Part shown: positions 1,328 through 26,205 of the stretch, piece after piece
How the letters are laid out: each line of letters opens with the position of its first letter
Position numbering within the stretch: position 1 is the first letter of the stretch
Sequence record: NC_054913.1
DNA from: Escherichia phage F2
Strand: one strand, 5' to 3'
DNA length: 64,000 bases
The notes under the pieces: model-generated
What the model saw: only the letters and a program-made list of their open reading frames with translations
Database searches by the model: none
What the model was told of the DNA's origin: nothing
Translations under genes and position numbers: made by a program

Positions 1328-3013
1328 ATGAAAAAAGCTGTTATTCTTGGTGCTGGACTGGCAACTCGTTTGTATCCAATAACGCATCATATTCCTAAGG
1401 TGCTTGTTAACTATAAACAAGACACTATTCTGAGCAATTTGTATACAATTTATTCTGACCTTGGCGCAGATGAAATTATTGTAGTAGTTCATTCAAAATT
1501 TGCTGAAACTGTTCGAGCTTATTGTGAGCAAGAAGGGTTCAATGTGACTATTCGTACAGTTGATGAAGCGTATGGTTCTGCTTATGCTCTTGCTAAATTG
1601 CACAAAGATTTAGACGGCCATAATGTAATTGTTAACTGGTGTGATATTATTCCTGATTTTGGTTCATGGTCTTGGAATGTTAACGCAATCTATGTTAAGG
1701 GTGACGAATGTCGATATAATTTCGACGGTGAAAATATCACTAATGTAGGTTCAACAGGTGGTAATGTTGTAGGAATTTATCAGTTCAAAGACTGGGAATT
1801 CTATATGGGTTCTACTGATGAGGAAATTCATGAATACTGCAAAGGACGTGATTTCGTAGAATTCCTTTACGGCAGCGCATTCAATAAATCAGAGCTTATG
1901 AATCTAATTGATTTAGGTGATATGCCTAAACTTGAAAAAGCTCATGAAGTTCGTGAACTTAATCGTAGTTTTAATGCAGTTGAAATTGGTGAAGAAACTG
2001 TAACTAAATTCGCATTAACCGAACAGGGCCGAGCTCTTCAGAAAGATGAGATTTCATGGTATCTTAAAGTGAAATCAGATTCAGTTCCTCAGTTAGTTTC
2101 TGTTAATGAAAATAACTTTGAAATGGAACGCATTAAAGGTAAGCCGGCATTTGAATATATTAAATCCAAATCAAGTCTTGCTCGTCCACAAATTGTTGAT
2201 GCAATTTTAGATGCACTGAAATTCAGCACAGACACTTATTTTGTAAGTCCTGAAACTGTTCGTCGTGATTTCACTAAAGAATTCTATACTAAAGTTATTG
2301 ATCGTTGTGAAAGTATTCAACCATTGATTGATTCATTTGGTAAAATCACACATGTGAACTACACTAAGATCGGACGTCTGAAGCCAATGTTGAAACAAGC
2401 TTTAGAACACCTTATTCGTTATCATAACCGTTCTCAGGGACAGTACTCTGTTATTCATGGTGACCCGAACTTCAGTAATACTATGATTACTGATAACGGC
2501 GAAGTCAAGTTTATCGACCCTCGTGGATATTTTGGTGAAACCAAGATTTACGGGCCAAAATTGTATGATGAAGCTAAAGTGCTTTACGCTGTTTCAGGTT
2601 ATGATGAATTCAACGCTAATCCGACTTGGGGACAGTTTACTATTGATGAAACAACTTGTAATGTGACTATTAACATCAATCCATTAGTTTACAAATATGG
2701 AAAGATGAGTTCGTTTAACGAGTATCATCATTTGGCAGTGGCAATTATCTGGATTGCATTAGGTGGTTATTTCAAGAATAATCCACTTAAAGCGGTAGCC
2801 GCATATTATAAAGGTATGGAACTTCTGACTAAGCAATTACGTAATATGGGCCGTGTACTTCAAGACGGCTCTATTAGTTATGACGTAGCAGAACCTGTAA
2901 CGGCTACTCTGATTACAAAAAATCCTGGTAAATGGGTACTAACTGATAAAGAAACTGGTGTTTCCTATCGTCCAATCGGTGGCGATATCACTCATCAATG
3001 GGAACGAATCTAA
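1328..3013 (+). CDS. bifunctional sugar-1-phosphate nucleotidyltransferase (N-term) / APH-type sugar kinase (C-term)
   Basis: N-terminus ILGAGLATRL is the GxGTRL signature of RmlA/GlmU-type NDP-sugar pyrophosphorylases; C-terminal region has Brenner motif VIHGDPNFSN and IDPRG typical of aminoglycoside/choline-kinase fold. Confidence 0.7.
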   Translation: MKKAVILGAGLATRLYPITHHIPKVLVNYKQDTILSNLYTIYSDLGADEIIVVVHSKFAETVRAYCEQEGFNVTIRTVDEAYGSAYALAKLHKDLDGHNVIVNWCDIIPDFGSWSWNVNAIYVKGDECRYNFDGENITNVGSTGGNVVGIYQFKDWEFYMGSTDEEIHEYCKGRDFVEFLYGSAFNKSELMNLIDLGDMPKLEKAHEVRELNRSFNAVEIGEETVTKFALTEQGRALQKDEISWYLKVKSDSVPQLVSVNENNFEMERIKGKPAFEYIKSKSSLARPQIVDAILDALKFSTDTYFVSPETVRRDFTKEFYTKVIDRCESIQPLIDSFGKITHVNYTKIGRLKPMLKQALEHLIRYHNRSQGQYSVIHGDPNFSNTMITDNGEVKFIDPRGYFGETKIYGPKLYDEAKVLYAVSGYDEFNANPTWGQFTIDETTCNVTININPLVYKYGKMSSFNEYHHLAVAIIWIALGGYFKNNPLKAVAAYYKGMELLTKQLRNMGRVLQDGSISYDVAEPVTATLITKNPGKWVLTDKETGVSYRPIGGDITHQWERI

Positions 3014-3399
3014 TGCACCGTGTAGAAAACATGCTTAATCTTTGTTTTGATGTCGACGATTGTATAACAGAGTGGAATAACAATCGTGATTACGTGAACT
3101 TCAAGCCAGACGTCGAAATGGTGACTGCCATTAATGCCCTGTATGATGCAGGGCATACCATAACGCTTTACACTGCTCGCGGTATGAAGTCAGTCGGTCC
3201 TGGTCGTATAGCAATTGACATTCTCCCAAGTCTGATTCAGAACTTGGCAAACATTGGATTGAAGTACCATAATTTGCTAACACATAAACCAGTATATGAT
3301 TGGATTATCGACGACAAAGCTATGCGTCCTGACGAATTCAAAGCTCTTATGAATAAAGGCGAATTCGAAACATTTAAATCATATAAACCGAATCTATAA
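3013..3399 (+). CDS. HAD-superfamily phosphatase (small, GmhB/KdsC-like)
   Basis: HAD motif I LCFDVDDCIT, motif II LYTAR, motif IV WIIDDK; start chosen at ATG overlapping upstream stop (TAATG). Confidence 0.6.
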   Translation: MHRVENMLNLCFDVDDCITEWNNNRDYVNFKPDVEMVTAINALYDAGHTITLYTARGMKSVGPGRIAIDILPSLIQNLANIGLKYHNLLTHKPVYDWIIDDKAMRPDEFKALMNKGEFETFKSYKPNL

Positions 3400-3446
3400 T
3401 AATTTAAGTAAGACCTGCAAAAACCATCGCATCAATTAACGGCGAG

Positions 3447-4616: not shown

Positions 4617-4894
4617 TTTCTAGAAAAACTTTTAACCACCAACTTAACGAAGAGATTTTGACTATTAAAATTAACAGCAACGAACAAATTCTTAAAAAGG
4701 CCCTTATGGGCCTGTTTGAAACTAAAGCGGCTAAAGTGATTAAAGAACCTGTTCAATTGTAATACTACGCTGATGCATTTCTTCATAGTGTTCTTGGAAG
4801 TATCGATGCTGAAGCTTTACGTTATATCAACATCGCTAAGAAATTCAAATAAGCTTTATGAATTGAGTATATAATAAATTGTATTGAGGTAAAC

Positions 4895-5611
4895 ATGGGA
4901 AAACATAACACAATGAAATATATTAAAGCCGCAGATTTTCAATCCGCATTTAAAGCTGTCAATCGTGAAATTTTAGAAAACCCGGAATTCGTTACTGATT
5001 CTCGTATTGGACGTTGTAATGAAATTGGGTCTATGACAGTAGTTGTTGATACCCCTTCATCATTCAAAATGACAGACCCACGTATTAATCGCATCTCTTA
5101 TGAATATGCTGAAGATTTCTGGAAATTTATGATTTCTGGTGGTACTGATGCAGAAGAAGCATTTAAGGCATATCCTAACGTTGCTAAATTTATTTCTAAA
5201 CCTAAATCAGATGCTTTGCCTGCAAACTTCAACACTTTCTACGGTCCACGAATTGCGGCCCAGTTACCAACTCTTCTAAAAGAACTTAAAGAAAAACCTA
5301 ACTCTCGAAGAGTTGTGTTCCAAATTCTAGAAAGTTCTGATCAGGCTTTGCTTGATTCAGACGAAACACTTGAATATCCATGTACTGACTCAGTGACTTA
5401 TTATATTCGTGATGGTAAGCTTTATACCCACTGTCATATGCGTTCTCAGAACTGTGCTGTTGTTATGCAGTTGGATTTTTATCTCCAAGGAAAATTACTT
5501 CATTATATCGCTAACGAATGTGGTGTAGAAGTTGGTGATTATACTCATACCATGGTAAGTGCCCATGTGTTTGAACGTGATTTTGATTATGTTAAAGGAT
5601 TCCTTGTCTAA
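4895..5611 (+). CDS. 42: dCMP hydroxymethylase (thymidylate-synthase superfamily)
   Basis: NSRRVVFQI...YPCTDSVTYYIRDGKLYTHCHMRSQNCAVVMQLDF parallels TS catalytic region (DSRRII...PCHxxxQFYVxDGKL...RSxD) but is distinct from td at 53514; syntenic with T4 gene 42; SD GAGGT upstream. Confidence 0.75.
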   Translation: MGKHNTMKYIKAADFQSAFKAVNREILENPEFVTDSRIGRCNEIGSMTVVVDTPSSFKMTDPRINRISYEYAEDFWKFMISGGTDAEEAFKAYPNVAKFISKPKSDALPANFNTFYGPRIAAQLPTLLKELKEKPNSRRVVFQILESSDQALLDSDETLEYPCTDSVTYYIRDGKLYTHCHMRSQNCAVVMQLDFYLQGKLLHYIANECGVEVGDYTHTMVSAHVFERDFDYVKGFLV

Positions 5612-19156: not shown

Positions 19157-19468
19157 ATGGTTTATGTATATGCAATAGTTTATCGAGATATGGAAGGATT
19201 TACTGTCCCGGTTCCACTTGATGAGCATCGTCCTGCAGTATTTTTTAGAAAGGATATTGCAGATAAAGTTTTTGATACTTTGAAAACACAGTATAAAACA
19301 GATTTAAAAATGGGAGTTCTAAGAATGGTCGAAACTCCGCGTAAGTTCTGGTTTAATAAGCTTGAAATGAAACACGTTAAACTAGATGCGGAGACGCAAA
19401 AATTGTATCAACGAATCCTGGACACAGGCCGTATTGTTAGTATTCCAATTGCAGGGACTTTACGATGA
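19157..19468 (+). CDS. hypothetical protein (dda.1 position)
   Basis: 103 aa ORF whose stop overlaps dda start. Confidence 0.5.
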   Translation: MVYVYAIVYRDMEGFTVPVPLDEHRPAVFFRKDIADKVFDTLKTQYKTDLKMGVLRMVETPRKFWFNKLEMKHVKLDAETQKLYQRILDTGRIVSIPIAGTLR

Positions 19469-20778
19469 CATTTGATGATTTGACTGAAGGTCAGAAAAAC
19501 GCCTTCAACGTTGTTATGAACGCTATTAAAGAAAAGAAACATCACGTAACTATTAATGGGCCTGCCGGTACAGGTAAAACAACCCTTACTAGATTCATCG
19601 TTGAAGCCCTTATTTCTTCTGGAGAATCAGGTATTATTTTAGCAGCCCCTACACATGCTGCTAAAAAGGTTCTAAGCAAACTCGCTGGTCAAGAAGCATC
19701 GACTATTCATAGCATTCTTAAAATCAACCCAACTACATACGAAGAAAACGTATTGTTTGAACAGAAAAAGGTCCCAGACTTAGCCTTGTGTCGTGTACTG
19801 TTATTTGATGAAGCGTCAATGTGCGACCGTTCTCTGTTTAAAATAATGTTAGCTAGTATCCCTAAATGGTGTACAGTAATTGGAATCGGCGACCGTTGCC
19901 AGATTCGTCCGGTAGACCCAGGCGAATCAACTGCGTATCTAAGTCCTTTCTTCACTCACAAAGACTTCGTGCAATGCAACCTTACAGAAGTTAAACGTAG
20001 CAATGCACCAATTATTGATGTTGCGACTGATATTCGTAATGGGAAATGGATTTACGATAAAGTAGTTGATGGACATGGTGTTCACGGATATACCGACCTT
20101 AAATCGTATATGATGAACTATTTTAACGTCGTTAAAACTCCTGAAGACCTTTTCGAAAATCGAATGATGGCATTCACAAATAAGTCGGTGGACAAGTTAA
20201 ATTCAATTATTCGCCGAAAACTTCTTGAAACAGAAAAACCATTTATTAAAGACGAAGTCATTGTTCTACAAGAGCCGTTTACTAAGACATATAAGCTAGA
20301 TGGTAAAAATATGACCGAAATGCTTTTCAATAACGGCCAATTCGTTCGTATTCGAGATGCTGTAGAAACGTCTACATTCGTTAAAGCACGTGGTGTTTCA
20401 GGCGAATATATGATACGATACTGGAATCTTACAGTAGAAACATACGGGGATGATGAAGAATACATCCGCGAAGATATAAAGGTTATTTCTTCTGAAGAAG
20501 AGCTTTATAAATTCAATTTGTTTTTGGCTAAGACCGCAGAAACATACAAATTTTGGAATAAAGGTGGTAAAGCTCCATGGAGCGAATTCTGGGATGCTAA
20601 ACGTATGTTCACTAAGGTGAAGGCACTACCAGTATCGACCTTCCATAAGGCCCAGGGTATGTCTGTTGACACGGCCTTTGTTTATACACCGTGTATCCAT
20701 TATGCTGATTCAGAATTAGCTAAACAGTTATTGTATGTTGGCACAACTCGTGGTCGGTTTGACGTCCATTTTATTTGA
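19465..20778 (+). CDS. dda: Dda DNA helicase (SF1B)
   Basis: 437 aa; Walker A GPAGTGKTT, Walker B LLFDEASM; matches T4 Dda. Confidence 0.9.
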   Translation: MTFDDLTEGQKNAFNVVMNAIKEKKHHVTINGPAGTGKTTLTRFIVEALISSGESGIILAAPTHAAKKVLSKLAGQEASTIHSILKINPTTYEENVLFEQKKVPDLALCRVLLFDEASMCDRSLFKIMLASIPKWCTVIGIGDRCQIRPVDPGESTAYLSPFFTHKDFVQCNLTEVKRSNAPIIDVATDIRNGKWIYDKVVDGHGVHGYTDLKSYMMNYFNVVKTPEDLFENRMMAFTNKSVDKLNSIIRRKLLETEKPFIKDEVIVLQEPFTKTYKLDGKNMTEMLFNNGQFVRIRDAVETSTFVKARGVSGEYMIRYWNLTVETYGDDEEYIREDIKVISSEEELYKFNLFLAKTAETYKFWNKGGKAPWSEFWDAKRMFTKVKALPVSTFHKAQGMSVDTAFVYTPCIHYADSELAKQLLYVGTTRGRFDVHFI

Positions 20779-20787
20779 GAGAAAATT

Positions 20788-21465
20788 ATGAGCACTGATG
20801 TTATTATAGATTTTGAAACATTCGGCAATACATCAAAAGCGGCTGTTATTGACCTTGCGGTTATTGCATATGATTCCGACCCTGAAGTTGTTGAATCATT
20901 TGAAGAACTTGTTCAACGAGGTAAGCGAATTAAATTTAATTTAGCTTCTCAGAAAGGGAAGCGAGTTTTCGCTAAATCCACTATGAAATGGTGGAAAGAA
21001 CAATCGGCCGAAGCACGTAAAAACTTGGCTCCGTCTGAAGACGATGTCACTACGCTTGAAGGCATTAAAATCTTTTTAGATTATTGCCGAGCTAATAAAG
21101 TTGACCAATGGAAATCACAGATGTGGTGCCGTGGTATGAGCTTTGACTTCCCGATCTTGGTCGATTTGATTCGTGACCTCTATCGTGATGAAGGTGTTCT
21201 TGAACCAGATATTGATACTGATAAATTAGAACCGGTTAAATTCTGGGCTCAACGCGATATTCGTACTGCAATCGAAGCTTACTCGTTGACACGAGGATTA
21301 AGTATGTGTCCATTACCGATGGGTACGCTAAAAGGATTCGTTGCCCATGATAGTATTCATGATTGTGCTAAAGATATTTTGATGTTAAAATATGCTCAGC
21401 GTTATGCGCTTGGTCTTGAAGATGTCCCTGAGAATCCTGACCCGTTAAGTGTAAAACAGCGATAA
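20788..21465 (+). CDS. dexA: exonuclease A (DexA, DEDD 3'-5' exonuclease)
   Basis: IIDFETFG...WCRGMSFDFPILVDLIRD...GFVAHDSIHDCAKDILM matches T4 DexA. Confidence 0.85.
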   Translation: MSTDVIIDFETFGNTSKAAVIDLAVIAYDSDPEVVESFEELVQRGKRIKFNLASQKGKRVFAKSTMKWWKEQSAEARKNLAPSEDDVTTLEGIKIFLDYCRANKVDQWKSQMWCRGMSFDFPILVDLIRDLYRDEGVLEPDIDTDKLEPVKFWAQRDIRTAIEAYSLTRGLSMCPLPMGTLKGFVAHDSIHDCAKDILMLKYAQRYALGLEDVPENPDPLSVKQR

Positions 21466-21470
21466 AACCA

Positions 21471-21500
21471 GTTTACAACCAAGGACGGTTGGAGTATAAT
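21471..21500 (+). promoter_or_regulatory. T4-type early promoter module
   Basis: gtttac-N18-tataat. Confidence 0.45.
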
Positions 21501-21531
21501 CTTTCTATCTTAACCAAACAGGAAAAACATT

Positions 21532-22026
21532 ATGAATATCAATACTACGGCTACTTACATCCTGAAAGACGAAAAACAAATCAACTGGTACGGTGCTTCA
21601 GTGCGAGCTTACGAAAAGTTTTGTGAAATTTTAGGTGCCACTCAAGGTAATAGTTTCACTATTGTTAACTTTATCAAACAAGCTGAAGGCCCTTGGTTAT
21701 TCTTAGAAATTAAAAATTCATACGGTACAATTTCTACTACCGCCATTCCAAGCACCGACTTTGAACTGTTGATTGAAGAAGCACCTGTTAAAGATGGTCT
21801 CCACTTTGATATGGATATCGCTTGTATGTACGGTACTCTGATTAAGCCTATTGAGCCTACTGATTTGTTGTGTAAAGCTGTTTCAATTCGACGACCATTC
21901 GCTGGACCGGTAAGTGGCTGGGTAACTGACCAGTGGATTGAAGATGGGGTTGAACTTCTGAACGTTGTTCATGCCGGTGATTTTAGTGTGGTTCCACGTA
22001 GTGCTGTGGTTAATATCCTTAATTAA
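21532..22026 (+). CDS. hypothetical protein, paralog family member 1
   Basis: C-terminal block GWVTDQWIEDGVELLNVVHAGDFSVVP shared with the next two ORFs. Confidence 0.5.
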   Translation: MNINTTATYILKDEKQINWYGASVRAYEKFCEILGATQGNSFTIVNFIKQAEGPWLFLEIKNSYGTISTTAIPSTDFELLIEEAPVKDGLHFDMDIACMYGTLIKPIEPTDLLCKAVSIRRPFAGPVSGWVTDQWIEDGVELLNVVHAGDFSVVPRSAVVNILN

Positions 22027-22027
22027 T

Positions 22028-22058
22028 GTTGTACATCCAAGGATGGATGGAGTATAAT
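22028..22058 (+). promoter_or_regulatory. early promoter-like module (TTGTAC -35 variant, TATAAT -10)
   Basis: gttgtacatccaaggatggatggagtataat. Confidence 0.4.
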
Positions 22059-22088
22059 GAATTCAACTTAAACAAAGAGAGAAAAAAT

Positions 22089-22586
22089 ATGATTACTATT
22101 GGTGAAATCCTTCGTGTATCTCCTGCTTCTCGTTCTAAAGCTGCAGGTCGTCTGGTTGAAGTAGCAGGGCTTCGTACTAACGGCATGGGACGTGTTAAAG
22201 AAGTTAAAGTTCGAATCATGCCCAGTTTTGGCGGACAAGATGCCCAGTATGCTTACGTAAGTCCTAAATTCCTGGAAAAACATATACGAGTCCAATTTGC
22301 TTCAAGCGAAGAAGTTGCACCTGCACACTTTGCTTCAAGCGATATCGTTGAGCCTAATGTACAGTTCAAATGGGCCTTGTGTAAAGGCGTTGAATTTATA
22401 ACCGATAAAGAATTCGATTACATCGACGAATACGGTTATCCAAGCACAACCGATACCATGTGTGGCTTCATTAGTGACCAATGGGTAGAAGATGGCGAAA
22501 AGTTATACAATATCGTATTCTTAGGTGACTTCCGAGTTGTTAAAGAATCTGAAATCACTCGCTATGTGTCTCCTCGTAAAGCTTAA
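22089..22586 (+). CDS. hypothetical protein, paralog family member 2
   Basis: VSPASRSKAAGRLVEV... and GFISDQWVEDGEKLYNIVFLGDFRVV shared with neighbours. Confidence 0.5.
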   Translation: MITIGEILRVSPASRSKAAGRLVEVAGLRTNGMGRVKEVKVRIMPSFGGQDAQYAYVSPKFLEKHIRVQFASSEEVAPAHFASSDIVEPNVQFKWALCKGVEFITDKEFDYIDEYGYPSTTDTMCGFISDQWVEDGEKLYNIVFLGDFRVVKESEITRYVSPRKA

Positions 22587-22595
22587 GGAATTATT

Positions 22596-23015
22596 ATGAA
22601 TATTGTAAATCTCTCTACAGGTGATTACGTATATGTATCTGTTGCTTCTCGCTCTAAAGTTGCCGGGAAGTTGGTTGAAGTTCTTTCTGTGAGTGATCCG
22701 GTTTTTGGACGTAACGAAGTTAAAGTTCGTGACGCTGATGGTAACATTGGTTATGTTAAAAGCCAATTCATTGAGCCAGAAGAACGTGTGTTCAAATGGA
22801 AACTGTGCAGGTCTGTTTTAGTTGTAAAAGACCGTGAATTCACTATTGCTGCGGCAACCGATGGAACGCCGTGGAAAACTAAGCAAATCGCCGGATTTAT
22901 TAGCGACCGTTGGGTAGAAGATGGTGTTAAGCTTTATAACATCGTTTTCGCCGGACAGTTCATGGTAGTTCCTGAGTTCCAAATCAAAAAATATTGTCCA
23001 GCATCTTTTGCATAA
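22596..23015 (+). CDS. hypothetical protein, paralog family member 3
   Basis: VSVASRSKVAGKLVEV... and GFISDRWVEDGVKLYNIVFAGQFMVV. Confidence 0.5.
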   Translation: MNIVNLSTGDYVYVSVASRSKVAGKLVEVLSVSDPVFGRNEVKVRDADGNIGYVKSQFIEPEERVFKWKLCRSVLVVKDREFTIAAATDGTPWKTKQIAGFISDRWVEDGVKLYNIVFAGQFMVVPEFQIKKYCPASFA

Positions 23016-23037
23016 AGTAGTTTACTTCTCCTCTAGA
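23009..23037 (+). promoter_or_regulatory. T4-type early promoter module
   Basis: gtttac-N17-tactatagacctatcaa. Confidence 0.45.
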
Positions 23038-23076
23038 TGTGTTACTATAGACCTATCAAAACAAGAGGAGAATATT

Positions 23077-23304
23077 ATGAAACGTCAAATCATTAAAAAC
23101 GTAACTACTGATTCAAACATCGATGAGTTTGAAGATGTTCTGTTTAATCCTGATTTAGTTGTTGTACAGAAAAACTGGACCGAATTTTTATGCTACACCG
23201 AAGTGGTTTACGTTTACGAAAAACTCGGTGATGAAATGCCTATCTATGGCATCTTCCGTGAAATCACTGAAAACGGTACAACTTATTGGAAGGAAACTTA
23301 CTAA
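23077..23304 (+). CDS. hypothetical protein
   Basis: SD AAGAGGAG before ATG. Confidence 0.45.
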
Positions 23305-23714
23305 TGGCTAATAAATTCCGCGTTAACTCATGGTACCAATTTATAGATAAACGTGCCCAAGAAGAGTTTATTAAAGACCACACTGATAATGGGATTTATG
23401 CACGACGTCTTGGCATGGAACCATTTAAAGTATTAGATGTTGACCATCTTGGTCGTCCTACTAAAATTTTAACATCTACTGGCACGGTTGGATACGCAAC
23501 AGGCGGTGATATCCTTGATGAAAACTTTATCTGGCTCTCCACGAATGAAGCAGAGTTCTTTGACGAAGTTGAAAATCCATATCAAGCGTCTGAAGAGCAA
23601 GATTCTGGTGAACTTGGTGAATTGTCTGAATTTCCTGTGATGACGATTACTATCGAAAATAATGACCAGGCATGGTCTTTGTATCAAATGTTGAAAGCAC
23701 ATTTTAAGGAATAA
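23304..23714 (+). CDS. hypothetical acidic protein
   Basis: TAATG overlap with upstream stop. Confidence 0.45.
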
Positions 23715-23716
23715 TA

Positions 23717-23896
23717 ATGCCATTATACGACTATAAATGTCAATCTGAAGATTGTGGCCATGAATATGAAAAAATTAAAAGAATTTCTGAACGAGAAAAC
23801 GATGTTTGCCCTGAATGTCATCGTCTGTCTACTCGTCGGGTTTCTGCTCCTAAACATGTGAACGGTGGTTTTTACGACTTACTTAAGAAGGGTTAA
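23717..23896 (+). CDS. FmdB-like zinc-ribbon protein (59 aa), missing from ORF track
   Basis: MPLYDYKCQSEDCGHEYEKIKRISERENDVCPECHRLSTRRV...: CxxC...CPxC zinc ribbon; read directly from sequence. Confidence 0.5.
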   Translation: MPLYDYKCQSEDCGHEYEKIKRISERENDVCPECHRLSTRRVSAPKHVNGGFYDLLKKG

Positions 23897-23898
23897 TT

Positions 23899-24324
23899 AT
23901 GGCTTTTAAAGGTTTTGAAGTTGGTAAGAAATATCGTATTATCAAAGGACAGGAAGATAATTTCTTGAGAATTCTTAATACGACTGGTAAACGTCTTAAT
24001 ACTAATCTGCATACTACTTTATTGTCCAAAGATTTTATTGTAGAAGAGATGATTGGTTACGGTGTTTCGGTTATTGCCGTAGAAGCCGTAGGCGATTATG
24101 GCCGAACTATTCATAGTATGCAAGGTGATATTCTGCTTTATGGTGCAGAATTTAAATTCTTTGAAGAAGTTCCGGAACCAGATACAGCTGTCGATTTCAA
24201 AAAAGGCTCTGTAGAATTTGTTGATGGTTCGGTGATCGTATCAGGTGATGTGGTCATTACAGTTAAAAGTGAACAAGGGCGTTTGGCTGCAATTGATGCA
24301 CTTCAGAAAATTAAATTTAAATAA
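23899..24324 (+). CDS. hypothetical protein
   Basis: 141 aa ORF followed by terminator. Confidence 0.5.
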   Translation: MAFKGFEVGKKYRIIKGQEDNFLRILNTTGKRLNTNLHTTLLSKDFIVEEMIGYGVSVIAVEAVGDYGRTIHSMQGDILLYGAEFKFFEEVPEPDTAVDFKKGSVEFVDGSVIVSGDVVITVKSEQGRLAAIDALQKIKFK

Positions 24325-24346
24325 GGGCTTCGGCCCTTTTTGCTTT
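24323..24346 (+). terminator. rho-independent terminator
   Basis: aagggcttcggccctt + ttttgcttt. Confidence 0.7.
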
Positions 24347-24387
24347 AGATTTCGGATGATAGAATACCTTCATAACGAGGAGACAAC

Positions 24388-26205
24388 ATGATTAAAAATG
24401 AAATTAAGGTATTGTCAGATGTAGAACATATTAAGAAACGAAGTGGCATGTATATTGGTTCTTCGGCCAAAGAAGCCCACGAGCGTTTTTTGTTTGGTAA
24501 ATATCAACAAGTTGAATATGTTCCTGGTCTGGTTAAATTAATCGATGAGATTATTGACAACTCGGTTGATGAAGCTATTCGTACATCATTTAAGTTTGCA
24601 AATAAAATTGATGTGCAAATTAAAAATAATCAAGTCTCAGTAGAAGATAACGGACGTGGTATTCCTCAAGGTTTAGTTACCGACCAAACAGGTGAACAAA
24701 TTCCTGGGCCTGTAGCAGCCTGGACTATTCCAAAGGCCGGCGGTAACTTTGGTGATGACTCTGAACGTAAGACCGGTGGTATGAACGGCGTCGGGAGTAG
24801 TTTAACTAATATCTTCTCTACGTTGTTTACAGGCATCACGTCAGATGGCGAAAATGAAATCACTGTTAACTGTTCAAACGGAATGGAAAACAAATCATGG
24901 TCTTCTAAGAAATCTAAAGGTAAAGGCACTAAAGTAATCTTCACTCCCGATTTCTCTTCATTTGAAGAGCATAATTTATCTCAAATTTATTTAGATATTA
25001 CTTTAGACCGACTTCAAACATTGGCAGTCGTTTATCCTGATATCAAGTTCACATTTAATGGTAAAAAGGTTGATGGTAATTTTAAACGATTTGCTAAACA
25101 ATTTGGTGAAGATAACATCATTCAAGAAAATGATAAAGTCTCTATAGCATTCACAACATCACCAGACGGCTTCCGTCATTTAACTTATGTGAATAACATT
25201 CATACTAAAAATGGTGGTCATCATGTTGAATGTGTAATGGATGATATCTGCGAACATCTTTTGCCCGGCATTAAAAAGAAATATAAGGGTATTGAAGTCA
25301 CTAAAGCTCGTGTTAAAGAATGTCTCACAATGTTGATGTTTATTAGAGACATGAGCAACATGCGTTTTGATTCTCAGACTAAAGAACGTTTAACGTCAAC
25401 GTATGGTGATATTCGTAATCATATCCAATTAGATGCTAAGAAAATTGCTCAGGCACTTCTTAAAAATGAAGCTTTGATTATGCCTATTGTTGAAGCAGCA
25501 TTAGCTCGTAAATTGGCAGCAGAAAAGGCTGCAGAAACTAAAGCAGCTAAAAAGGCAACTAAAGCTAAGGTTCATAAGCATATTAAAGCTAACCAATGTG
25601 GTAAAGATGCGGATACGACATTGTTTTTAACAGAAGGTGATTCGGCAATTGGTTATCTCATTGATGTTCGTGACCGTGAACTACACGGCGGATTCCCATT
25701 ACGTGGTAAGGTGATGAATAGCTGGGGTATGTCATATGCTGATATGATGAAGAACAAAGAGCTCTTTGATATCTGTGCTATCACAGGTCTTATTCTTGGT
25801 GAAAAGGCAGAGAATACAAACTATCGTAATATTGCAATTATGACTGATGCCGATCATGATGGTCTTGGAAGTATTTATCCGGCTTTGCTTGCTTTCTTTA
25901 GTAATTGGCCTGAATTGTTTGAACAAGGACGTATTCGCTTTGTTAAAACGCCTGTAATTATTGCACAAATTGGCAAAACACAAAAATGGTTTTATACTGT
26001 AGCTGAGTATGAAGAAGCTAAAGATACACTTCCTAAGCATAGTATTCGATACATCAAGGGATTGGGCTCCCTTGAAAAGTCAGAATATCGTGAAATGATT
26101 CAGAACCCTGTGTACGACGTAGTTAAACTTCCTGAAAATTGGAAAGAACTCTTTGAAATGTTGTTGGGTGATGATTCAGAACTTCGTAAAGAATGGATGT
26201 CCTAA
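24388..26205 (+). CDS. 39: type II DNA topoisomerase large (ATPase) subunit, gp39 with gp60-equivalent C-terminus fused
   Basis: GHKL ATPase motifs (LIDEIIDNSVDEA, GxxGxG region) and Toprim region; 605 aa, about the sum of T4 gp39 + gp60. Confidence 0.9.
   Translation: MIKNEIKVLSDVEHIKKRSGMYIGSSAKEAHERFLFGKYQQVEYVPGLVKLIDEIIDNSVDEAIRTSFKFANKIDVQIKNNQVSVEDNGRGIPQGLVTDQTGEQIPGPVAAWTIPKAGGNFGDDSERKTGGMNGVGSSLTNIFSTLFTGITSDGENEITVNCSNGMENKSWSSKKSKGKGTKVIFTPDFSSFEEHNLSQIYLDITLDRLQTLAVVYPDIKFTFNGKKVDGNFKRFAKQFGEDNIIQENDKVSIAFTTSPDGFRHLTYVNNIHTKNGGHHVECVMDDICEHLLPGIKKKYKGIEVTKARVKECLTMLMFIRDMSNMRFDSQTKERLTSTYGDIRNHIQLDAKKIAQALLKNEALIMPIVEAALARKLAAEKAAETKAAKKATKAKVHKHIKANQCGKDADTTLFLTEGDSAIGYLIDVRDRELHGGFPLRGKVMNSWGMSYADMMKNKELFDICAITGLILGEKAENTNYRNIAIMTDADHDGLGSIYPALLAFFSNWPELFEQGRIRFVKTPVIIAQIGKTQKWFYTVAEYEEAKDTLPKHSIRYIKGLGSLEKSEYREMIQNPVYDVVKLPENWKELFEMLLGDDSELRKEWMS

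What the first reader, a model, noticed from the sequence alone, without database searches (positions are those of the whole stretch)
21532..23015. Tandem triplet of paralogous genes downstream of dexA
Three adjacent ORFs (164, 165, 139 aa) share an N-terminal V-S-x-A-S-R-S-K-x-A-G-[RK]-L-V-E-V block and a C-terminal GF[IV][ST]D[QR]W[VI]EDG-x-[KE]L-x-N-[IV]V-x-[AL]G-[DQ]F block, each with its own promoter-like element for two of them. Locally expanded early-gene families in T4-like phages are often host-takeover or anti-defence factors.
Basis: seen in the sequence. Interest (0 to 1): 0.45.

Follow-up and report, generated by a model that had tools for sequence, protein, structure and literature searches.

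The report
Known MotB gene cluster of T-even phage
The three adjacent genes are the already described motB.1, motB and second-motB early genes of an RB69-like T4-type phage, whose best-studied member coats DNA and disturbs the host's H-NS silencing protein, so the finding is real but ordinary.

Summary
The window is a Mosigvirus (RB69-like T-even phage) early region: dda, dexA, three ORFs, cef, goF, gene 39. The three ORFs exist at the stated coordinates and lengths. All three pass Pfam PF17613 (MotB). ORF2 (22089-22586) is the T4 MotB orthologue (45% identity). ORF3 (22596-23015) is a second full-length MotB copy (40% to ORF2, E 1e-30) with a shortened linker. ORF1 (21532-22026) is the T4 MotB.1 orthologue (39%, E 9e-28). 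It shares only the C-terminal domain of about 57 residues with the other two (profile-profile E 1e-27). The claimed N-terminal VSxASRSK block is absent from ORF1, where the best match is at chance level. Promoter-like sites precede ORF1 and ORF2; ORF3 follows ORF2 after a 9-nt gap. All three are under purifying selection (dN/dS 0.01-0.25). Patterson-West et al. 2021 already reported the shared C-terminal domain, and two motB plus one motB.1 in RB69. By homology, the likely mechanism is abundant early DNA-binding proteins that remodel H-NS-bound DNA; no anti-defence evidence was found. Side observations: the T4 reference motB.1 carries a one-base frameshift that truncates the conserved domain, and the C-terminal domain models as an SH3/Tudor-like barrel rather than the predicted OB fold. 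Verdict: already known, low interest.

The parts
21472..21500 (+). Early (sigma-70 type) promoter-like site upstream of ORF1: TTTACA, 17-nt spacer, TATAAT, preceded by G (GTTTACA)
   Evidence: 11 of 12 matches, the best site in 19300-24500. One search shows it is homologous to the site upstream of ORF2. This is a consensus match only; function was not tested.
21532..22026 (+). ORF1, 164 aa: orthologue of T4 motB.1 (MotB.1 subfamily), with an N-terminal non-KOW domain, a disordered linker and a MotB-type C-terminal domain
   Evidence: 39% identity to T4 MotB.1, E 9e-28. phrog_2333 E 6e-82. Pfam PF17613 at 36.8 bits against a cut-off of 25, over residues 88-159 only. AF2 mean pLDDT 80.8. dN/dS 0.01-0.19.
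21808..21849 (+). Conserved short motif DMDIACMYGTLIKP (ORF1 residues 93-106) inside the low-confidence linker
   Evidence: pLDDT is below 50 for residues 87-107. The motif D-x-D-[IV]-x-x-M-Y recurs in 90 of 119 proteins with a MotB.1-type C-terminal domain and in 0 of 102 with a MotB-type one.
21853..22023 (+). ORF1 C-terminal domain (residues 108-164), the module shared with ORF2 and ORF3
   Evidence: hhalign 99.8%, E 1.1e-27. BLASTP E 4e-10 and 6e-11. Alignment A6. The model has strands 116-119, 127-137, 140-147, 150-155, a short helical turn, then 159-163.
22030..22058 (+). Early promoter-like site upstream of ORF2: TGTACA, 17-nt spacer, TATAAT
   Evidence: 10 of 12. It is positionally conserved upstream of motB in T4, RB27 and RB69. 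It lies inside the 21-aa N-terminal extension that some GenBank records annotate for this gene.
22089..22586 (+). ORF2, 165 aa: orthologue of T4 motB. KOW-like N-terminal domain (residues 1-65), disordered linker (66-92), C-terminal domain (93-165)
   Evidence: 45% identity to T4 MotB from residue 1, E 7e-41. Pfam PF17613 at 127.6 bits over residues 1-160. phrog_1671 E 7e-63. AF2 mean pLDDT 76.8. dN/dS 0.12-0.25.
22596..23015 (+). ORF3, 139 aa: second motB copy with the linker shortened by about 25-32 residues. KOW-like N-terminal domain (about residues 1-60), C-terminal domain (66-139). Probably co-transcribed with ORF2
   Evidence: 40% identity to ORF2 over the full length, E 1e-30, with a 24-residue gap plus smaller gaps (32 in all). 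38.5% to T4 MotB. Pfam PF17613 at 78.4 bits. The 139-aa form is 86-92% conserved in Mosigviruses and 91% identical in the Tequatrovirus RB27. dN/dS 0.13-0.15. A 9-nt gap with AAGGA lies before the ATG.
20788..21465 (+). dexA (exonuclease A), upstream flank that fixes the synteny
   Evidence: annotated exonuclease/dexA in near-identical phages.
23077..23304 (+). cef, downstream flank. In most relatives a motB.2 gene sits between ORF3 and cef; it is absent here
   Evidence: Pfam T4_Cef E 3e-34. Alignment with AV111 and TH58. Annotations.

Best explanation
The locus is the motB.1 - motB - motB' early-gene cluster of a Mosigvirus (RB69-like T-even phage).

Shown here:
- Each protein is two small beta-barrel domains joined by a flexible linker.
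- All three carry the same C-terminal barrel, with the core motif G-[FW]-[IV]-[ST]-D-[QR]-W-[VI]-E-D-G-x-x-L-x-N-[IV]-V.
- ORF2 and ORF3 pair it with a KOW-like N-terminal barrel carrying V-S-x-A-S-R-S-K-x-A-G. ORF1 pairs it with the unrelated MotB.1-type N-terminal domain.
- All three genes are intact and under purifying selection.
- Two sigma-70-type promoter-like sites sit before ORF1 and ORF2.
- ORF3 looks like a tandem duplicate of the ORF2-type motB.

Inferred from homology to T4 MotB and from published experiments on it:
- The genes are transcribed by host RNA polymerase within the first minute of infection.
- ORF2, and probably ORF3, accumulate to high levels and bind double-stranded DNA without sequence specificity.
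- They reshape H-NS/StpA-DNA complexes, which de-represses H-NS-silenced genes and modestly raises phage yield.
- They would be toxic if expressed alone.

Speculative:
- ORF1 (MotB.1) is acidic in both domains, so it probably does not coat DNA itself.
- It may use the shared C-terminal barrel to contact the same partner as MotB, or MotB itself. Its function is unknown.
For: Identity:
- Pfam PF17613 is above its cut-off for all three.
- PHROG MotB-like families match.
- Identity to T4 MotB is 45% (ORF2) and 38.5% (ORF3); identity to T4 MotB.1 is 39% (ORF1).
- The synteny dda-dexA-[...]-cef-goF-39.2-39 is the same as in T4, RB69 and RB27.
- 148 phage records cover at least 80% of the region at the DNA level, the nearest being Mosigviruses.

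Shared domain:
-.

Structure:
- AF2 models have pLDDT 77-81, with two barrels and a disordered linker.

The genes are functional:
- dN/dS is 0.01-0.25 against four relatives.

Promoters:
-.

Duplication:
- A neighbour-joining tree puts ORF2-type and ORF3-type as sister clades.

Mechanism, from the literature:
- T4 MotB is toxic, binds modified and unmodified DNA non-specifically, copurifies with H-NS and StpA, and its presence doubles burst size (PMC6070864 abstract).
- MotB overrides the H-NS footprint at proV and up-regulates 75 host genes, about one third of them in the H-NS regulon. The same paper notes the shared C-terminal domain of MotB and MotB.1, and that RB69 has two motB, one motB.1 and a 29-aa peptide (PMC7827196).
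Against: - No experiment exists for the Mosigvirus proteins. The mechanism rests on 38-45% identity to T4 MotB.
- Charge differs from T4 MotB (pI 9.2). ORF2 is pI 5.8 overall, with a basic N-terminal domain (+6) and an acidic C-terminal domain (-5). ORF3 is pI 8.9 with the opposite split (-1 and +5). ORF1 is pI 4.65. DNA coating may therefore not be equally strong in each paralogue.
- Even for T4 MotB the physiological target is unsettled. A knockdown barely changes the T4 transcriptome, and no DNA-independent MotB-H-NS contact was found.
- Deleting T4 motB.1 gives no phenotype.
- The promoters are consensus matches only. The number of such matches in the region (17) is not above the shuffle expectation of 15.2.
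Confidence: 0.8

Rival explanations
1. The proteins act on RNA rather than DNA. They would be post-transcriptional regulators or RNA chaperones that use KOW-, LSm- or Tudor-like barrels to bind mRNA or the translation and transcription-elongation machinery.
Confidence: 0.12
2. The cluster is a dedicated anti-defence module in which each paralogue neutralises a specific bacterial immune system.
For: The genes sit in a hyperplastic, non-essential early region. Copy number varies between phages from 1 to 3. Synonymous divergence in ORF1-3 (dS 0.10-0.39) is higher than in neighbouring dexA (0.04-0.07). H-NS itself can act as a defence against foreign DNA (discussion of PMC7827196).
Against: There were no hits to PADLOC models (these are defence rather than anti-defence models, so this is weak evidence). 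None of the five papers opened assigns an anti-defence role (PMC6070864 seen only as abstract and outline). The family is conserved with strong purifying selection rather than fast arms-race evolution (dN/dS at most 0.25).
Confidence: 0.06
3. The similarity is chance or low complexity, or the extra copies are decaying pseudogenes with no function.
For: None for chance. For decay: ORF3 lacks the linker, and the reference records of T4 and RB69 show frameshifted motB.1.
Against: E-values run from 1e-30 to 4e-10 pairwise and 1e-27 profile-profile. ORFs are intact and dN/dS is 0.01-0.25 in four independent relatives. The 139-aa form is conserved at 86-92% across many phages and in another genus. 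The T4 frameshift is confined to the old reference record.
Confidence: 0.02

Closest known systems
T4 MotB (gene motB, 162 aa; Pfam PF17613; PHROG 1671)
   Same: ORF2 is 45% and ORF3 38.5% identical over the full length. They have the same two-domain layout (KOW-like N-terminal domain with the VSxxSRSKAAG motif, then linker, then C-terminal domain with DQWVEDGVKLYN). They occupy the same position between dexA and cef and have the same upstream promoter position.
   Different: Overall charge is lower: pI 5.8 and 8.9 against 9.2, with the basic residues split between the N-terminal domain of ORF2 and the C-terminal domain of ORF3. ORF3 lacks most of the linker. There are two copies here instead of one.
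T4 MotB.1 (gene motB.1; PHROG 2333)
   Same: ORF1 is 39% identical over 134 residues (E 9e-28). It has the same N-terminal domain, the same acidic character and the same position immediately upstream of motB.
   Different: ORF1 has about 21 extra linker residues carrying the DMDIACMYGTLIKP motif. It also has a complete C-terminal domain, whereas the T4 reference annotation (119 aa) stops inside that domain because of one extra G. Resequenced T4 encodes 143 aa.
RB69 motB region (RB69p010-p013), as described by Patterson-West et al. 2021
   Same: The gene set and order are the same: motB.1, motB, second MotB-like gene of 139 aa. That paper states that RB69 has two motB, one motB.1 and a 29-aa peptide.
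   Different: In the RB69 reference record motB.1 is broken by two frameshifts into a 132-aa ORF plus the 29-aa peptide, whereas the window has one intact 164-aa gene. RB69 also has motB.2 between the second motB and cef; the window lacks it.
GoF / Frd.2 / MotB.1 'LSm-like fold' family (Kim et al. 2025)
   Same: ORF1's N-terminal domain is the MotB.1 member of this proposed family. The window also carries goF (23304-23714) and a second phrog_622 gene (23899-24324) nearby.
   Different: I could not confirm sequence homology between the ORF1 family and the window's GoF-like proteins: hhalign probability 9.6% and 0.4%. GoF and Frd.2 lack the MotB C-terminal domain.
Other phage antagonists of H-NS (T7 gp5.5, T4 Arn)
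   Same: The proposed outcome is the same: relief or alteration of H-NS silencing early in infection (discussion of PMC7827196).
   Different: Those proteins bind H-NS directly. [quoted passage not shown] They are not homologous to MotB.
Tudor, KOW and other SH3-like barrel domains (53BP1 tandem Tudor, PHF19, NusG and Spt5 KOW)
   Different: Sequence identity is 9-19% with no sequence-level relationship: the profile search of PDB sequences gives nothing below E 0.4. No aromatic-cage or other functional inference can be drawn. This is fold resemblance only.

Membership tests
MotB family (Pfam PF17613) | Match to the Pfam model above its gathering score (25 bits) | tested here: met
   ORF1 36.8 bits (C-terminal part only), ORF2 127.6 bits (full length), ORF3 78.4 bits.
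MotB family (Pfam PF17613) | Conserved C-terminal domain with the core D-Q-W-[VI]-E-D-G-x-x-L-x-N-x-V | tested here: met
   Present in all three. Family profiles align at 99.8% probability, E 1.1e-27.
MotB proper (T4 MotB orthologues, PHROG 1671; 'Category 1' of Patterson-West 2021) | N-terminal KOW-like domain with the V-S-x-x-S-R-S-K-x-A-G motif | tested here: met
   Met for ORF2 (residue 10) and ORF3 (residue 14). NOT met for ORF1, whose best match is 4 of 16 and at chance level. ORF1 is therefore filed under MotB.1, not MotB proper.
MotB proper | Position in the early region between dexA and cef/goF, read in the same direction | tested here: met
MotB proper | Non-specific tight DNA binding, toxicity in E. 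coli, copurification with H-NS and StpA | not testable with these tools
   Known only for T4 MotB (PMC6070864, PMC7827196). The charge of ORF2 and ORF3 differs from T4 MotB.
MotB.1 subfamily (PHROG 2333; 'Category 2' of Patterson-West 2021) | Sequence homology of the N-terminal domain to T4 MotB.1, plus a MotB.1-type C-terminal domain (P-T-D-L-L-C-K-A-V ... G-W-V-T-D-Q-W-I-E-D-G-V-E-L-L-N-V-V-H) | tested here: met
   ORF1 vs T4 MotB.1: 39% identity, E 9e-28, residues 3-136. phrog_2333 E 6e-82. Invariant columns of A1.
MotB.1 subfamily | LSm-like five-stranded bent sheet in the N-terminal domain (Kim et al. 2025) | tested here: inconclusive
OB-fold (cold-shock-like) assignment of the MotB C-terminal domain (HHpred prediction in Patterson-West 2021) | Five-stranded barrel with OB topology, usually with a helix between strands 3 and 4 | tested here: inconclusive
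Known anti-phage defence proteins (PADLOC) | Match to any PADLOC model | tested here: not met
   No hits at E up to 1.

The most novel reading that the evidence does not exclude
The shared C-terminal SH3/Tudor-like barrel might be a common docking or oligomerisation module rather than the DNA-binding element, and the three proteins might work as a set.

- The two MotB copies have divided the basic surface of the single T4 MotB between them: ORF2 has a basic N-terminal and acidic C-terminal domain, and ORF3 the reverse.
- They might act as a heteromer on DNA.
- The acidic MotB.1, with its conserved disordered DMDIACMYGTLIKP peptide, might use the same barrel to tune or antagonise MotB or a shared host partner such as H-NS/StpA.
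- If so, published negative results for T4 MotB.1 may reflect use of the 119-aa form truncated by the reference-sequence frameshift.
Probability: 0.12. Interest if true: 0.4.

Novelty: already known. Interest (0 to 1): 0.15.

Why it matters
As a discovery it matters little. The family, its shared C-terminal domain and the extra copy in RB69-type phages are already published.

The check has practical value in three ways:
2. It shows that the T4 and RB69 reference records misrepresent motB.1. The true product carries a complete C-terminal domain, which bears on experiments done with a gene synthesised from the reference annotation.
3. It suggests that the family's conserved C-terminal module is an SH3/Tudor-like barrel, confined to T4-like phages and combined with at least three kinds of N-terminal region.

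MotB remains one of the few phage proteins linked to H-NS remodelling. Knowing which domain binds DNA, and which is merely shared, would help explain how it works.

Tried and rejected
1. N-terminal block in ORF1: regex and shuffle tests show it is absent.
2. ORF start at 22026 (186 aa, as in some GenBank records): rejected. T4 MotB aligns from the ATG at 22089, and the extension contains the promoter-like site.
3. The fourth 'transcriptional regulator' gene in AV111 as a fourth paralogue: rejected. It is the MotB.2 homologue (33% to T4 MotB.2, E 1e-13), is unrelated to MotB, and is absent from the window.
4. T4 dexA.1 and dexA.2 as relatives of ORF1: no similarity.
5. Homology of the ORF1 N-terminal domain to the window's GoF-like proteins: hhalign probabilities 9.6% and 0.4%, so not supported by sequence. 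There was only a weak PHROG cross-hit (E 0.0013).
6. Solved structures by sequence: nothing below E 0.4.
7. PADLOC: nothing.
8. Rfam on 20700-24500: only a sub-threshold Y_RNA match inside ORF1 (26.5 bits against 38), taken as chance.
9. Exhaustive profile search with the C-terminal domain against 1.84 billion representatives: 35 hits. About 27 are small T4-like phage proteins. The rest are long repetitive proteins matching short stretches, judged spurious from the one sequence inspected (P0242). No relatives of known function were found.
10. Programmed frameshifting in T4 motB.1: rejected in favour of an error or strain-specific mutation in the old record. All the other T4-labelled records listed, about a dozen entries (some possibly the same stock or variants), lack the extra G.
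11. Minus-strand ORFs across the locus are at most 81 aa and received no support.
Full report
**What is there**

The window around the finding reads, on the + strand:
- dda helicase (19465-20778)
- dexA exonuclease (20788-21465)
- ORF1 (21532-22026, 164 aa)
- ORF2 (mechanical ORF from 22026; real start 22089, ends 22586, 165 aa)
- ORF3 (22596-23015, 139 aa)
- cef (23077-23304)
- goF (23304-23714)
- gene 39.2 (23717-23896)
- a second GoF-like gene (23899-24324)
- the topoisomerase gene 39 (from 24388)

The 3.7 kb around the finding is 95-98% identical to many Mosigvirus genomes (RB69-like T-even phages: DCP548, TH58, ST0, HX01, AV111). 148 phage records cover at least 80% of it. The gene order is the T4 early region dda-dexA-motB.x-cef-goF-39.2-39, read here in the direction of transcription.

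**Check of the observation**

- ORF2 and ORF3 are full-length paralogues: 40% identity, E 1e-30, with a 24-residue gap plus smaller ones (32 gapped positions in all) around the linker of ORF3.
- ORF1 matches them only at its C-terminus: 44-55% identity over 29-36 residues, E 4e-10 and 6e-11.
- With family profiles the shared region grows to about 57 residues of ORF1 and about 73 of ORF2. The comparison is unambiguous (hhalign 99.8%, E 1.1e-27).
- The N-terminal VSxASRSKxAG[RK]LVEV pattern matches only ORF2 and ORF3. In ORF1 the best ungapped match is 4 of 16, reached by 89% of shuffles.
- The two promoter-like elements are real consensus matches: 21472-21500 at 11 of 12 and 22030-22058 at 10 of 12. 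They are homologous to each other. The second is positionally conserved upstream of motB in T4, RB27 and RB69.
- As a class, such matches are not enriched in the region: 17 found against 15.2 expected.
- ORF3 starts 9 nt after ORF2 behind an AAGGA and has no promoter of its own.
- Verdict: partly confirmed.

**What the genes are**

All three pass the Pfam MotB model PF17613 (36.8, 127.6 and 78.4 bits against a cut-off of 25). ORF1 matches only over its C-terminal half. PHROGs places ORF2 and ORF3 in the MotB-like family 1671 and ORF1 in family 2333.

Direct comparison with T4 proteins:

| Window gene | T4 relative | Identity | E-value |
|---|---|---|---|
| ORF2 | MotB (aligned from residue 1) | 45% | 7e-41 |
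| ORF3 | MotB | 38.5% | 2.6e-25 |
| ORF1 | MotB.1 | 39% | 9e-28 |

- The extra gene that many relatives carry between ORF3 and cef, which some records call a 'transcriptional regulator', is the MotB.2 homologue. It is unrelated to MotB and is missing from the window and from TH58.
- The same motB.1, motB, 139-aa gene triplet occurs in RB69. It also occurs in the Tequatrovirus RB27, whose 139-aa protein is 91% identical to ORF3.
- A neighbour-joining tree, without support values, places the ORF2-type and ORF3-type proteins as sister clades. They are joined by apparent recombinants (P0148, P0149, P0151) and are separate from T4-type MotB. ORF3 is therefore best read as a tandem duplicate of this motB type.
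- All three genes are under purifying selection against four relatives. dN/dS is 0.01-0.19 for ORF1, 0.12-0.25 for ORF2 and 0.13-0.15 for ORF3.

**Structure**

- AlphaFold2 with family alignments gives mean pLDDT 80.8 for ORF1 and 76.8 for ORF2.
- Each model has two confidently modelled small beta domains separated by a linker with pLDDT below 50: ORF1 residues 87-107 and ORF2 residues 66-92.
- The two proteins share only the C-terminal domain, so this domain is probably what is being matched.
- Its strand order, with a short helical turn between strands 4 and 5, fits an SH3-like barrel better than the OB fold proposed from HHpred in 2021. This rests on models and whole-chain searches, so I call it inconclusive.
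- No solved structure is detectable by sequence.

**Distribution**

- A profile of the C-terminal domain, run against 1.84 billion representative proteins, finds only 35 hits. About 27 are small (100-250 aa) phage proteins; the rest are long repetitive proteins, judged spurious from the one I inspected.
- tblastn finds the domain in 904 phage records. There are one to three copies per genome in Escherichia, Shigella, Yersinia, Klebsiella, Enterobacter and Edwardsiella T4-like phages.
- BFVD structural hits are likewise T4-like phage proteins.
- The domain is combined with a KOW-like N-terminal domain, with the MotB.1-type N-terminal domain, and with longer N-terminal regions in proteins of 177-252 aa.

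**Mechanism**

Nothing has been tested for the Mosigvirus proteins. Published results for T4 MotB:
- It is highly toxic in E. coli.
- It binds unmodified and glucosyl-hydroxymethylcytosine DNA tightly and without sequence specificity.
- It copurifies with H-NS and StpA, and its presence doubles burst size (PMC6070864).
- It overrides the H-NS footprint at proV.
- It up-regulates 75 host genes, about a third of them H-NS-repressed.
- It shows no DNA-independent contact with H-NS (PMC7827196).

By homology, ORF2 and probably ORF3 are abundant early DNA-coating proteins that remodel nucleoid-protein-DNA complexes.

Caveats come from the charge calculation:

| Protein | Overall pI | N-terminal domain net charge | C-terminal domain net charge |
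|---|---|---|---|
| T4 MotB | 9.2 | +5 | +1 |
| ORF2 | 5.8 | +6 | -5 |
| ORF3 | 8.9 | -1 | +5 |
| ORF1 | 4.65 | -4 | -3 |

- Because the conserved C-terminal domain is acidic in ORF1 and ORF2, I doubt that it is the generic DNA-binding element. That is inference.
- T4 MotB.1 has no known function. Its deletion has no phenotype, and it had no effect in an mRNA-stability reporter (PMC12152347).

**Comparison with what is known, and novelty**

Patterson-West et al. 2021 already describe the following:
- MotB homologues fall into categories: those with a MotB-like N-terminal domain, and those sharing only the C-terminal domain.
- MotB.1 shares the MotB C-terminal domain and probably arose by duplication.
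- Several phages carry extra copies. RB69 has two motB, one motB.1 and a 29-aa peptide.

The finding is therefore a rediscovery of a named and published family. No anti-defence evidence was found. I rate it already known, interest 0.15.

**Side observations**

1. The T4 reference sequence (NC_000866.4 = AF158101.6) has an extra G in motB.1 (GGATTGGAAGATGG against GGATT-GAAGATGG).
   - This ends the annotated protein at 119 aa, inside the invariant motif WVTDQWI|EDGVELLNVVH.
   - The rest of the domain is readable in the +1 frame.
   - The other T4-labelled records listed, about a dozen entries, match over 511 rather than 512 nt. MT984581 annotates 143 aa.
   - The 143-aa protein P0011 is seen on 256 contigs.
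   - Kim et al. 2025 had motB.1 synthesised and report a 13.8 kDa monomer, which is the mass of the 119-aa form. Their MotB.1 probably lacked the last 28 residues of the domain.
2. In the RB69 reference, motB.1 has two frameshifts. The 'Category 3' 29-aa peptide is the tail of motB.1, which is intact (164 aa) in the window and in other Mosigviruses.
3. The motB.2 presence/absence junction lies in repeated promoter and leader sequence. This is the kind of exchange attributed to promoter-early stem-loop cassettes in T4-type phages (PMC2839356, PMC4122927).
4. A conserved peptide D-x-D-[IV]-x-x-M-Y-G-T-L-[IV]-K-P sits in the disordered linker of ORF1. It accompanies MotB.1-type but never MotB-type C-terminal domains.

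Noticed in passing
L004 (T4 NC_000866.4) 2760-2860 minus strand; compare window 21895-21995: The T4 reference record has one extra G in motB.1, which truncates the annotated protein to 119 aa inside the conserved C-terminal motif. About a dozen other T4-labelled records lack the G and encode 143 aa with a complete domain. The motB.1 gene synthesised for Kim et al. 2025 (13.8 kDa product) appears to be the truncated form.
   Followed up: yes
L005 (RB69 NC_004928.1) 4877-5373 minus strand: RB69 reference motB.1 is split by two frameshifts into a 132-aa ORF and the 29-aa 'hypothetical protein' RB69p012. That peptide is the 'Category 3' peptide of Patterson-West 2021. The window and other Mosigviruses have one intact 164-aa gene.
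   Followed up: yes
window 23016-23076; L001 (AV111) 2817-3412: Most relatives (AV111, 348Ecol098PP, RB69, ST0) carry a 525-nt motB.2 gene between ORF3 and cef. The window and TH58 lack it. The junction falls in repeated promoter and leader sequence (GTTTACTTCTCCTCT ... AGAGGAGAATATTATG). This fits the promoter-cassette-mediated gene shuffling described for T4-type phages. In T4 and RB27, motB.2 sits elsewhere, directly after dexA.
   Followed up: partly
window 22026-22088: Several GenBank records annotate this motB gene with an extra 21-32 N-terminal residues, starting at the ATG that overlaps the ORF1 stop. That extension contains the promoter-like site and has no counterpart in T4 MotB, so it is probably a mis-annotated start.
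   Followed up: partly
window 21808-21849 (ORF1 residues 93-106): A conserved peptide DMDIACMYGTLIKP lies in a linker predicted to be disordered. The D-x-D-[IV]-x-x-M-Y motif is found in 90 of 119 proteins with a MotB.1-type C-terminal domain, including ones with KOW-like or other N-termini. It is found in 0 of 102 with a MotB-type C-terminal domain, and it is absent from T4-type MotB.1. It is a candidate short linear interaction motif.
   Followed up: partly
window 22089-23015: The two MotB copies have complementary charge. ORF2 has a basic N-terminal domain (+6) and an acidic C-terminal domain (-5). ORF3 has a near-neutral N-terminal domain (-1) and a basic C-terminal domain (+5). The single T4 MotB is +5 and +1. 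This may reflect subfunctionalisation; it was not tested.
   Followed up: no
window 23304-23714 and 23899-24324: A second local pair of related genes flanks 39.2. One is the GoF orthologue (74% identical to T4 GoF). The other is a 141-aa protein in the same PHROG (phrog_622, E 7e-22) that also cross-hits goF PHROGs. T4 has the unrelated 39.1 at that position.
   Followed up: partly
proteins P0148, P0149, P0151 (metagenome contigs): These are apparent recombinants between MotB types. For example, P0149 has a T4-type N-terminal domain and linker joined to an ORF3-type C-terminal domain, and P0151 has an ORF2-type front with an ORF3-type tail. This indicates exchange between paralogues and between genera.
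   Followed up: no
window 21532-23015 compared with 20788-21465: Synonymous divergence from close relatives is several-fold higher in ORF1-ORF3 (dS 0.10-0.39) than in adjacent dexA (0.04-0.07). This suggests the motB block has a different, mosaic history from its flank.
   Followed up: no
window 21681-21774: A sub-threshold Rfam match to Y_RNA (26.5 bits against a gathering score of 38, E 0.023) lies inside the ORF1 coding sequence. I take it as chance.
   Followed up: no
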